From assembly GCA_965112155.1 (NCBI GenBank), contig OZ218107.1: a DNA stretch of 64,000 bases. One strand, 5' to 3'. The stretch comes from Podarcis liolepis. Its lineage: Eukaryota. Made by a program: the position numbers and the translations under genes. Each line of letters begins with the position of its first letter. Position 1 is the first letter of the stretch. The notes under the pieces were generated by a model that was not told the origin of the DNA, searched no databases, and saw only the letters and a program-made list of their open reading frames with translations. Shown here in pieces: positions 45,201 to 48,200 of the stretch.

Positions 45201-48200
45201 AGTGTTGTCTTGCTTTTGGTTCTCTTTATTTAGCTCATGCGAATAATGAAGTTGGTTTCCCTTAAACCGTTTCTGCTGAACTTTAATAGCTTTTTGCCCT
45301 GCTCAGTTGTAAACCCAATAGAATCATTCCCTATTTCAGGAACGTTACAGAAACACTATTTCCTATGAATGAATTTAAAAGAAAAAGTGAAATGAAATGG
45401 ATTATAGTCTCTGATTCTCTTTTCTAACTTGACCCTTCATGTTGTAGGTTACCGGTATGCCTAAATCTGCAATGTGTATGCCACCCTGAACCAAATTTGG
45501 CCTGCATACAAGGCTTGATCTTCCTCTTTCTAACTTGCCCCAGTATACCAAAGCTTTCCCTCTGCTCTGCACAATCACACCCACTTATTATTATTAATCA
45601 CCCACCCTTCCCCCTAAGGTCCCACAGTACGTCCAAATTTATCCCACTTTAGTGCACATTTCATAGCCCTCTGATGAGGGTGACAAGGGAAATTCCATTC
45701 TAGGGTGAAGGTGGGGAGGGGGTGGGGAGCCAAACCCTAGGCAACTCCACCATCAAAACAAGATGCTGCTCACTGCTGCCTGGAGTCTTGGAGTCACCAA
45801 CGTAAGAGACACCAATTTTCAGAGTTAAAATTTCAGTACTACAGAACATCAGCTAAAAGAAAAAATACAAACAGAAACTTTAATAATAAAGTTCATTGCA
45901 TTCTATTCAGTTTATTATTTTAAAAGGTAGGCTTGCACACAGTGTCATCAGTGTGCATGGTGCTTTACAGAGAAAAAAGACAGCTGGTCCCTGCCCCAAG
46001 AAGTTTAAAATCCTACACAAGCAAAACAATAGAGGAAGGAAGTAGAAAAATGTATTCAATTCATTTGCACTTAGGCTTAGCTTCCACAGATAATGTGGCT
46101 GTGTCAAAGGCTTCATAGAAAAGGTGGACTTTTGAGAAGGAGATTGAGGGGGATGCAACATCCTATAGGTAGCTCAAGGAGGCAGCTGCAGTGAAGTCAC
46201 CAACAAGGAAGAAAAGGCCAGAATAATTCAAAGGCTGTGTTTGCAAGGGAGCGCATGTCCCATCCAGGCCTAGGTGAGACCAGCTGACTATCCTTAGCTC
46301 CCACCTCCTGTGACTGAAATGGAAAAAATCTGCTGCCTGTGATGGTGCTGCTGCACTGAGTGAGGAAGCCCCTTCCCAGAGGAATTATCTCAACTGGCAC
46401 TGGTTGGTGCTCTGATAAATTATTTTTTAATACTATGAGTTAATATCAAAAGGCACTGTTTACTGAACATAGGCTGAATCTCGCATCCATTTTCATCAAT
46501 TTCCCCCCAAAGTTTCTTAATTGTGGAGACACACTATTTCCCCCTGAATATGAGAGGCACACTTTGCTACTGAACTCGGAAAGGTTTCCTATTCATGTGC
46601 AAGGCTATGAATTTGCCACACTCAAAGGAGGCCATCTCCTGGGTATTTCTGCTCGAGTCACTGTTCTAAGGAGTGCAAGTCTAGAACAATGAGTCATGCA
46701 GATGCACATCAGTGAGGCTTCTATGTGGTGGGTAGTTTTCTCCATTTTGGTTCCCATCAATTTGGGGGGGGGGCATGGGGTGGAAACCAGCCCCATGCAG
46801 AGCTTACCTGAGGTCTGGGGTGGGAGTCTTGTTATAGTTATAAACTCAAAAACAAAAAAGAATCTGGTCCTGGGTTGCCCCCCTGGTCAGCTTAGCCCTC
46901 CAGGGCCCGGAGAAAGTGTACCCAGCTGCCCTCCCCCATCTTCATGGACCTGGTGGAAACACTTGTGCTCAATCTCAGCTACATTACTAATGCTTAATGA
47001 TTTTACTAATGCTTTTTATAGCCACTGAATTCTCCCTGGGTGTTGTTTTTGGGAGGGGAGCTTCTTCCCACCACTTATTTTTTGCACCCCCACAAACCTC
47101 AAGCTTACCCCAGTCTGTTTATTCCTCATATGAAGGTGGTAGCTTTAGCTATATTTGTGCAAGCATGCTAAGACTTGAAACAGAAATAAGGATATTTCCA
47201 CTGGAAACCAATGGAAAATAATATTCCTTGAATGGTAGGGCAAAAGTATTTTAAACTTGTACTTACAGCTTATATAAACAAGTATTTAGAATCCTAGTTA
47301 AGCAACACATGCCTATAATAATTCTTTCATTCTGTAACATATTTGTTCAGATCAAGAGCTAATGTTCAAGTTAATGTTTTGTAATGAAGAAAAAACTGAC
47401 AGGGTCAAAAGATTTCCACCAATATCCAATTTTAGTTTGGTACAGTACCTGGTTACGCAACTTTTCCTGAATGAATGCCAATGAACAGTAGGATTAAATA
47501 ACTGATTTCCACCTGAGCTTTAGGTGTGGGCTGTGGCTCTTCCTTTTTGTAGCATTCAACCTCTTGCATTTCATGCAGAGCTAGGAAAGAGAGCTTCTAC
47601 ATTATCCCAAGTGTGTGCTTTCTTTTCTTTTCCTCTCCTGCAAAGCTACCCATCCTCTATCACTGAAGGAAGACATCTTTTGTTAGCTGTGGTAGGAGCT
47701 CTACAATTGTAGAGGGTTATAGGAGACTTACGCTGGTCACTCGACGGTAGATCTGTGCAGCATTTTGACACTCAGAATAAGGATATTCAGACGTAGCCAT
47801 CTCAAGCATACACATCCCAAAAGCATATACATCAACGGATTCATCGTATTTCTCCTCATACATCTCGGGTGCCATGAACTCTGGGGTACCTTAAATTAAA
47901 AGAACGATTCAGACTCTAAATGTCTCAAAGCGAGCAGAGGCTGCTGGCGTTACTCACCGCAGAAGGGAGTAGACGGGTAGACCTGTGAGAAAAGAAGAAG
48001 TGGAAGCAAAAAGAAGAGGGAGGACACCCTCAGTCACTCTGTTTCATCAACGTATCCCATGGGTCTTCCATTGCAAGGCCTTTGCAAGAAGTGAGGAACC
48101 AACAGTTAAAGGTTTTTATGTTCACCATTTATAGATATTATAATGGAACAGAATCAGGGGGAACATATGAAGATTTTAGTCATAATGGTATATGATTGAA

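What the first reader, a model, noticed from the sequence alone, without database searches (positions are those of the whole stretch)
47890..48040. Candidate 25-nt poison micro-exon in the kinase activation-loop intron of WNK1
Seen: on the minus strand, a branch-like gactgag, an about 40-nt pyrimidine tract (tcctccctcttctttttgcttccacttcttcttttctcacag), a 25-nt segment (47958-47982), then a consensus donor CG|gtgagt. It sits only 68 nt before exon 4, whose own acceptor is weaker (ttttaatttaag). The block retains several CpGs in otherwise CpG-poor intron. Inclusion shifts the frame right after FAKSVIG ([19 protein letters not shown]). Using only its acceptor (93 nt longer exon 4) also meets an in-frame TGA. 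Inference: an NMD or truncation switch that would lower kinase-active L-WNK1 but not KS-WNK1, which starts downstream at exon 4a. I do not recall this being part of the standard WNK1 exon map.
Basis: partly seen in the sequence, partly recalled or inferred. Interest (0 to 1): 0.72.

Follow-up and report, generated by a model that had tools for sequence, protein, structure and literature searches.

The report
Conserved poison splice site in WNK1
Just before exon 4 of the salt-balance kinase gene WNK1, this reptile has a second, strong splice acceptor that a related species' likely RNA data show in use and that frog and caecilian gene models appear to share; using it would add an early stop codon and likely destroy the message for the active kinase.

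Summary
The sequence is as described: a strong acceptor at 47982, a consensus donor 25 nt later, then 68 nt to WNK1 exon 4. It is the only such pair among 71 pyrimidine-rich acceptors in the window. The acceptor is real. A contig from one probable RNA run of a close relative splices it, at exact GT-AG ends, to an unlisted donor at 48538. Two amphibian WNK1 protein models leave exon 3 for a matching block: the frog tail ranks this site first of 2,880 blocks; the caecilian match is weaker. All three read through the donor, so the supported form is a stop-containing 93-nt extension of exon 4, not the 25-nt cassette. Cassette use was neither seen nor testable. The 68-nt intron is at the lower size limit for splicing. 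Inferred acceptor-to-donor lengths (25, 23, 22 nt) share no frame, which argues against coding use. NMD, regulation and presence in mammals or birds are untested. It is not in the published 32-exon WNK1 map; seven WNK1 searches found no description. No earlier scan note matched. Verdict: new member of a known kind.

The parts
47983..48035 (-). Branch-like sites, pyrimidine tract and CAG of the alternative acceptor
   Evidence: used as the 3' end of a 555-nt GT-AG skip in run X1
47958..47982 (-).
   Evidence: included in the junction contig; homologous segments of about 22 and 23 nt inferred from P0044 and P0386
47952..47957 (-). Consensus donor GTGAGT; also holds the TGA that ends the acceptor-only frame
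   Evidence: motif compatible with both amphibian tails; use as a donor not observed
47890..47957 (-). 68-nt mini-intron; best branch candidate 48 nt from the donor and 19 nt from exon 4
   Evidence: matches the frog tail along its length to 47896
47983..48537 (-). 555-nt nested intron removed in one run
   Evidence: joint contig depth 6 beside unspliced contig depth 18.7
48538..48565 (-). 3' end (at least 28 nt) of an unannotated upstream exon or of extended exon 3, ending ATG before a GTAAGT donor; 5' end unknown
   Evidence: candidate acceptors listed
48282..48341 (-). Further candidate pseudo-exon (60 nt, in-frame stop) with a consensus donor; use not observed
49705..49925 (-). WNK1 exon 3 (catalytic loop to activation loop)
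47732..47889 (-). WNK1 exon 4
37942..38028 (-). Exon 4a (KS-WNK1 first coding exon, cysteine-rich), downstream of the element
   Evidence: role from PMC6014176 passages

Best explanation
A strong second splice acceptor lies 93 nt upstream of WNK1 exon 4, is joined to an upstream donor in a relative's likely RNA contig, is probably conserved from amphibians to reptiles, and would add a premature stop that likely sends the long WNK1 message to decay. Mechanism, step by step. (1) Shown: its pyrimidine tract is stronger than that of exon 4's own acceptor. (2) Shown once: it is chosen by a donor at 48538. Inferred from two amphibian gene models: it is also chosen by the exon 3 donor. (3) Inferred: the consensus donor 25 nt downstream helps define the site, but it is only 68 nt from exon 4 and 48 nt from the likely branch point, so this mini-intron is mostly kept and the product is exon 4 lengthened by 93 nt. 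(4) Shown by translation: that product, and the cassette if it forms, stop 222 or 124 nt before the next junction. (5) Inferred: NMD or nuclear detention lowers kinase-active L-WNK1 and spares KS-WNK1. Whether the choice is regulated is untested.
For:: in run X1, one joint on intron 3, with GT-AG ends exactly at 48538 and 47982, contig depth 6 against 18.7 unspliced; the contig runs 4 nt past the internal donor; the back-translated tail of frog model P0386 scores best at this site of 2,880 blocks (29.3 bits, next 20.4), ranks first of 162 distinct tails, and is compatible at 57 of 66 informative columns (5 gaps); the caecilian tail of P0044 scores as well against only 1 of 19,930 other AG-anchored peptides and is the best of 152 tails; these are the only 2 of 174 non-canonical tails that begin GH, which would need a non-consensus donor if it were plain read-through. 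Lengths of 25, about 23 and about 22 nt keep no common frame, yet each read-through form ends in a stop. PMC12081236 passages: smallest intron in theory 62 nt, risk below 77 nt, 99% of flanking introns at least 80 nt; the 9 differences to the relative avoid both splice ends (range test p 0.036).
Against: Direct splicing evidence is one contig in one run whose RNA status is a guess; the other contig run had no joint and the two raw runs gave 0 and 3 reads on the intron. It may be a splicing intermediate. The amphibian evidence is peptide only, from gene models that are cut short at or soon after exon 4; their read support was not seen, and a short amphibian intron 3 starting with this block is not excluded. 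The caecilian tail did not place this site in the top 5 of an unanchored scan and ranked third in the anchored DNA test. The 3' third of the block is exon 4's own branch and tract region, which would be conserved anyway. No bird or mammal tail matched. Within the finding's own span the lack of differences is not significant (p 0.25). All read-through observations come from sources that could not show, or tend to drop, the cassette form. No NMD data.
Confidence: 0.58

Rival explanations
1. One reading: a true 25-nt poison cassette, exon 3 to micro-exon to exon 4, is the main product; the read-through forms are intermediates.
For: The donor is consensus and its motif fits both amphibian tails; all three inferred lengths shift the frame. 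The cassette shares only 29 nt with the intron that was laid, so could not have shown it.
Against: 3 of 3 observations read through the donor; 0 of 634 fetched proteins carry the cassette-frame peptide; a 25-nt exon and a 68-nt intron are both below the 99% limits of 31 and 80 nt in PMC12081236.
Confidence: 0.14
2. Decoy module: the block and the other donor-like sites in intron 3 bind the spliceosome without finishing and hold intron 3 in the nucleus; the junctions seen are leaks.
For: 4 of the 10 G|GTRAGT sites on this strand of the window lie between 48538 and 47958 (binomial p 1e-4 for intron 3, post hoc). The unspliced contig is three times deeper than the spliced one. 11 fetched proteins, mostly named mammals including human F6UYG0, end by read-through into intron 3. 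Decoy exons lie in introns over 1 kb and often have competing sites (PMC6097662 passages).
Against: Retention was not measured against spliced exon 3-4 or other introns. The raw runs showed almost no intron 3 signal (0 and 3 reads). WNK1 was not found in the 4 searched supplements of that paper. This overlaps the best explanation and may be true alongside it.
Confidence: 0.12
3. Internal first exon: a promoter in intron 3 gives an exon ending in ATG at 48538, spliced through the 25-nt exon to exon 4 in frame, making a second kinase-dead short WNK1 like KS-WNK1.
For: The observed junction puts an ATG with a purine at -3 and G at +4 in frame with the 25-nt segment and exon 4; a second in-frame ATG lies at 48597. 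The 5' end of the upstream exon is unknown.
Against: Needs the 47958 donor, whose use was not seen; with read-through the frame stops after 11 codons. The frog length of about 23 nt would break the frame. No such N-terminus among 143 new representatives or 634 proteins. No start-site data.
Confidence: 0.07
4. Splicing noise: a strong but unselected cryptic acceptor; the likeness to amphibians reflects exon 4's own branch region plus chance.
For: One contig only; cryptic splicing is common in pre-mRNA (general knowledge); no RNA structure (z -0.07) and no Rfam match.
Against: The frog match covers the donor and the 5' half of the mini-intron too; two amphibian models leave exon 3 for this block; it is the strongest acceptor scored.
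Confidence: 0.09

Closest known systems
Conserved poison exons and other AS-NMD events (PMC11632617 abstract; PMC8605326 passage on poison exons)
   Same: Unannotated conserved intronic splice sites whose use creates a premature stop far upstream of later junctions.
   Different: Here the supported product is an alternative 3' splice site extension with a kept 68-nt mini-intron, not a cassette; NMD is untested; the host is a kinase, and evidence is from a reptile and amphibians.
Decoy exons of SF3B1 intron 4, OGT, ARGLU1 (PMC6097662 passages)
   Same: Short non-coding exon-like units of 29-56 nt and up, several competing splice sites, intron over 1 kb, leaky junctions.
   Different: Conservation here is moderate, not 93-98%; retention and decoy activity were not measured; the unit sits directly against the next exon.
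Recursive-splicing RS-exons (PMC8605326 passages)
   Same: AG followed at once by GT, then a short out-of-frame exon with variable content and a downstream donor.
   Different: The regenerated donor (GTCTAC) is far from consensus and weaker than the downstream one, and the intron is only 1.8 kb.
Known WNK1 isoforms: KS-WNK1 exon 4a; alternative exons 8b, HSN2, 9, 11, 12, 26, 26a, 26b (PMC3365125); 393-aa intron-3 read-through model F6UYG0
   Same: Same gene; KS-WNK1 and the 393-aa model also lack a complete kinase domain.
   Different: None uses an acceptor inside intron 3; the published RT-PCR and EST survey of human and mouse found three alternative regions, all downstream of exon 8.

Membership tests
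Poison (AS-NMD) splice event | Splice sites are used in RNA | tested here: inconclusive
   Acceptor used in one contig of one probable RNA run; internal donor use not seen; exon 3 link inferred from two gene models
Poison (AS-NMD) splice event | Use creates a stop more than 50 nt upstream of a later junction | tested here: met
   222 nt (acceptor only) and 124 nt (cassette) before the exon 4/5 junction; rule as in the PMC13187750 abstract start
Poison (AS-NMD) splice event | Conserved across distant species | tested here: met
   Frog tail best at this site of 2,880 blocks; caecilian 1 in 19,930 anchored but not in the top 5 unanchored; peptide-level only; birds and mammals unknown
Poison (AS-NMD) splice event | Isoform rises when NMD is blocked | not testable with these tools
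   No NMD-inhibited data for this organism were listed
Poison cassette micro-exon | Both flanking introns are removed | tested here: inconclusive
   3 of 3 observations read through the donor, but the cassette could not be seen on the intron-only lay
Decoy exon | Lies in an intron over 1 kb with several competing splice sites | tested here: met
   1,815-nt intron; 4 donor-like sites in 580 nt
Decoy exon | Host intron is retained, and retention depends on the decoy sites | not testable with these tools
   Unspliced contig depth 18.7 but no comparison with spliced message; needs a minigene
Recursive splice site (RS-exon) | Acceptor directly followed by a donor stronger than the RS-exon's own, in a long intron | tested here: not met
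   AG|GTCTAC against G|GTGAGT downstream; intron 1.8 kb
Frame-keeping coding micro-exon | Length a multiple of three, or one frame kept across species | tested here: not met
   25, about 23 and about 22 nt; no in-frame protein among 634
Structured non-coding RNA | Rfam match or fold stronger than shuffles | tested here: not met
   0 matches at E up to 1; z -0.07, and -0.96 to -1.36 for sub-regions

The most novel reading that the evidence does not exclude
The block is a regulated off-switch for kinase-active WNK1 kept across tetrapods, mammals included: a strong acceptor paired with a donor held just too close to exon 4 to splice, so that choosing it reliably discards L-WNK1 while KS-WNK1 is spared. 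Blocking or favouring it would tune WNK1 dose.
Probability: 0.22. Interest if true: 0.78.

Novelty: new member of a known kind. Interest (0 to 1): 0.5.

Why it matters
WNK1 controls salt transport and blood pressure, and intron 1 deletions cause familial hyperkalaemic hypertension (PMC3365125 introduction); that they act by raising L-WNK1 is recalled, not checked here. A conserved stop-making splice choice upstream of exon 4a would change the L-WNK1 level, and the L to KS ratio, without touching the promoters. It is missing from the 32-exon map. If it exists in mammals it could be probed with antisense oligonucleotides, and intronic variants near exon 4 would become interpretable. If it is limited to reptiles and amphibians it is a modest annotation result. 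The pairing of a kept donor with a borderline-size intron is also a neat test case for intron size limits.

Tried and rejected
Paralogues: the 201-nt block has one match in the genome, itself. The frog profile scored at most 17.5 bits, on the wrong strand, in 3.2-kb loci around the WNK2, 3 and 4 equivalents of exon 4, against 29.3 here. Metagenome scan with exon 4: 80 loci kept of 443, best 92% identity, none a vertebrate WNK1 orthologue by its peptide, so no cross-species DNA. Sequencing runs: no holder on record as RNA was listed; 4 of the 24 listed runs were laid; X23 gave 0 reads and is no test. An in-frame activation-loop insert made of an 8-nt exon at 48545-48538 plus the 25 nt (open frame) was set aside: the junction contig contains 20 nt upstream of that acceptor, its tract is poor (0.42 pyrimidine), and no protein shows it. 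The likeness of the in-frame reading to the AGC-kinase FCGTPE motif (recalled) is treated as chance. Exon 2 joins used a wrong boundary and were redone; they are open in frame but have no support. Three protein searches, one representative search and three cluster look-ups found no further matching tail; only the best 120 or 150 hits of each were seen. The bacterial promoter scan is not relevant here. Literature: WNK1 searches listed no paper describing this site; only titles and abstract starts were seen for most. WNK1 was absent from searched supplements of PMC11632617 (1 file), PMC8091538, PMC10123112, PMC11188260 (12 of 13) and PMC6097662 (4 of 5); tables keyed by coordinates or held elsewhere, and databases such as GENCODE, VastDB or Snaptron, could still list it. 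No structure was predicted.

Full report
Setting. The window holds WNK1 on the minus strand: exon 2 at 56089-55917, exon 3 at 49925-49705, exon 4 at 47889-47732, exon 4a at 38028-37942, and later exons down to about 2000. Exon 1 lies outside the window in L088; its closest named relatives are from a gecko and a cobra, 82-83% identical, so the genome is a squamate reptile. Three paralogues lie on other contigs; their labels WNK2, 3 and 4 are mine, from recalled diagnostic residues.

Observation. The acceptor at 47982 has 19 of 20 pyrimidines at -24..-5, more than the six other acceptors scored, and exon 4's own has 14 of 20 with AAG. Of 71 YAG sites in the window with at least 30 of 40 upstream pyrimidines, only this one has a G|GTRAGT donor within 60 nt; the rule was set after seeing the site. 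The CpG excess is mild: 1.6% of 93-nt windows reach 5. There is no second copy in the genome, no Rfam match and no unusual fold.

Splicing evidence. Of 24 runs listed, four were laid on intron 3 alone. Two raw RNA runs gave 0 and 3 reads and say nothing. Contig run X11 gave two unspliced pieces elsewhere in the intron. Contig run X1, from a relative about 1.5% different and only guessed to be RNA, gave an unspliced contig over 47954-48565 (depth 18.7) and a 57-nt contig (depth 6) that skips 555 nt with GT-AG ends at 48538 and 47982. The contig carries 28 nt upstream of that donor and runs 4 nt past the internal donor, two of them specific to the unspliced form. Its length is what a 31-mer assembly gives for a single junction (and my arithmetic), so its ends are not exon ends. 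The cassette form shares only 29 nt with the intron and could not appear. The nine differences on the long contig all fall in its middle (range p 0.036; for the finding's span alone p 0.25).

Conservation. No genome of another vertebrate was on hand, and the metagenome scan returned none. I looked instead at how truncated WNK proteins end after exon 3. Of 634 proteins fetched, 362 hold the end of exon 3; 188 continue normally and 174 do not. Nearly all of the 174 begin with residues expected from reading into a normal donor. Two begin GH, both amphibian WNK1 models. Frog P0386 (Pyxicephalus, A0AAV3AYP9): its back-translated tail scores best at this site among 2,880 blocks of 288 kb of this genome (29.3 bits, next 20.4, mean -1.4) and ends at 47896, 6 nt before exon 4. 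Anchored at the acceptor it ranks first of 162 distinct tails, with 57 of 66 informative columns compatible and 5 gaps; the match is clear from the donor onward and poor over the first 20 nt. Caecilian P0044 (Rhinatrema, XP_029455793.1): its 8-residue tail ends like the window's acceptor-only product, and only 1 of 19,930 other AG-anchored peptides scores as well. It is a weaker case: not in the top 5 of the unanchored scan, third in the anchored DNA test. Both models come from loci whose sister models stop soon after exon 4, and I did not see their read support. Inferred acceptor-to-donor lengths are 25, about 23 and about 22 nt; the frog mini-intron would be about 72 nt. No bird or mammal tail matched. 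That is weak evidence either way, because protein sets usually omit decay-bound isoforms (general knowledge).

How it most likely works. All three observations use the acceptor and read through the donor. PMC12081236 (passages) gives 62 nt as the theoretical smallest intron, more mis-splicing below 77 nt or with a donor-to-branch distance under 60 nt, and 80 and 31 nt as the 99% limits for introns and internal exons. Here the intron is 68 nt, the likely branch is 48 nt from the donor, and the exon is 25 nt. I infer that the donor helps mark the acceptor but rarely completes splicing, so the product is exon 4 lengthened by 93 nt. That form stops 222 nt, and the cassette 124 nt, before the exon 4/5 junction. 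For the 48538 junction, 17 of 18 candidate upstream acceptors tested give a stop when joined to exon 3, the open one is excluded by the contig, and plain read-through of exon 3 stops within 8 codons. Decay is inferred from the 50-nt rule, not shown. KS-WNK1 begins at exon 4a (PMC6014176 passages; PMC3365125) and would be spared.

Rivals. The cassette as main product (0.14) is untested rather than refuted. A decoy or detained-intron role (0.12) fits the four donor-like sites within 580 nt (4 of 10 on this strand), the deeper unspliced contig and the 11 proteins that end in intron 3, but retention was not measured. An internal first exon giving a second kinase-dead isoform (0.07) fits the in-frame ATG at the upstream donor but needs the unseen donor and fails the frog frame. 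Noise (0.09) does not explain the frog match around the donor.

Comparison with what is known. It works like a conserved poison splice event and meets the stop-position and, at peptide level, the conservation tests; RNA use is thinly shown and NMD untested. It fails the tests for a recursive site, a coding micro-exon and a structured RNA. PMC3365125 (abstract, first fifth of the text, passages) lists eight alternative WNK1 exons in human and mouse, none before exon 8. Seven WNK1 searches and five supplement searches showed no description; PMC8299563 mentions Wnk1 skipping without locating it in the passages seen. PMC6097662 and PMC8605326 were read as passages, PMC11632617 as abstract and outline. 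Annotation databases were not searchable, so 'not described' is provisional. Five look-ups of earlier scan notes found nothing relevant.

Verdict. A real, probably tetrapod-old unproductive acceptor in WNK1 intron 3; new member of a known kind; interest 0.5, held down by thin RNA evidence and unknown status in mammals.

Noticed in passing
window 48538-47958, minus strand: Four of the ten G|GTRAGT donor-like sites on this strand of the window (48538, 48515, 48282, 47958) lie within 580 nt of intron 3; only the first was seen in use.
   Followed up: partly
window 48341-48282, minus strand: A 60-nt candidate pseudo-exon with tandem acceptors, a consensus donor and an in-frame stop; no use seen.
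   Followed up: partly
window 48597-48538, minus strand: An ATG opens 20 codons, with three cysteines, in frame with the 25-nt segment and exon 4; a four-codon upstream frame and a TATA-like motif overlap it. May be chance.
   Followed up: partly
window 38028-37942, minus strand: Intact KS-WNK1 exon 4a, 29 codons with the cysteine-rich hydrophobic motif, in a squamate.
   Followed up: partly
proteins P0357, P0360, P0362, P0363, P0630, P0019: Human, ape, macaque, bear and bat WNK1 models of 393-395 aa end by reading into intron 3, hinting at retention or early polyadenylation there in mammals. No AATAAA or ATTAAA lies in the window's intron 3.
   Followed up: partly
proteins P0017, P0243, P0254, P0256, P0365, P0368: Exon 3 read-through peptides, some clustering with bird WNK1, are much alike over about 18 codons, suggesting a conserved 5' end of intron 3, possibly with a second donor.
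   Followed up: no
L007-L020 and other metagenome loci: The intron between SVIG and TPEF sits at the same place in WNK genes that look invertebrate, several with a similar TTTAAG or CTTTAAG acceptor.
   Followed up: no
window 42181-42726: Frames resembling the end of an RTE/BovB-type retroelement in intron 4 (label recalled, not tested).
   Followed up: no
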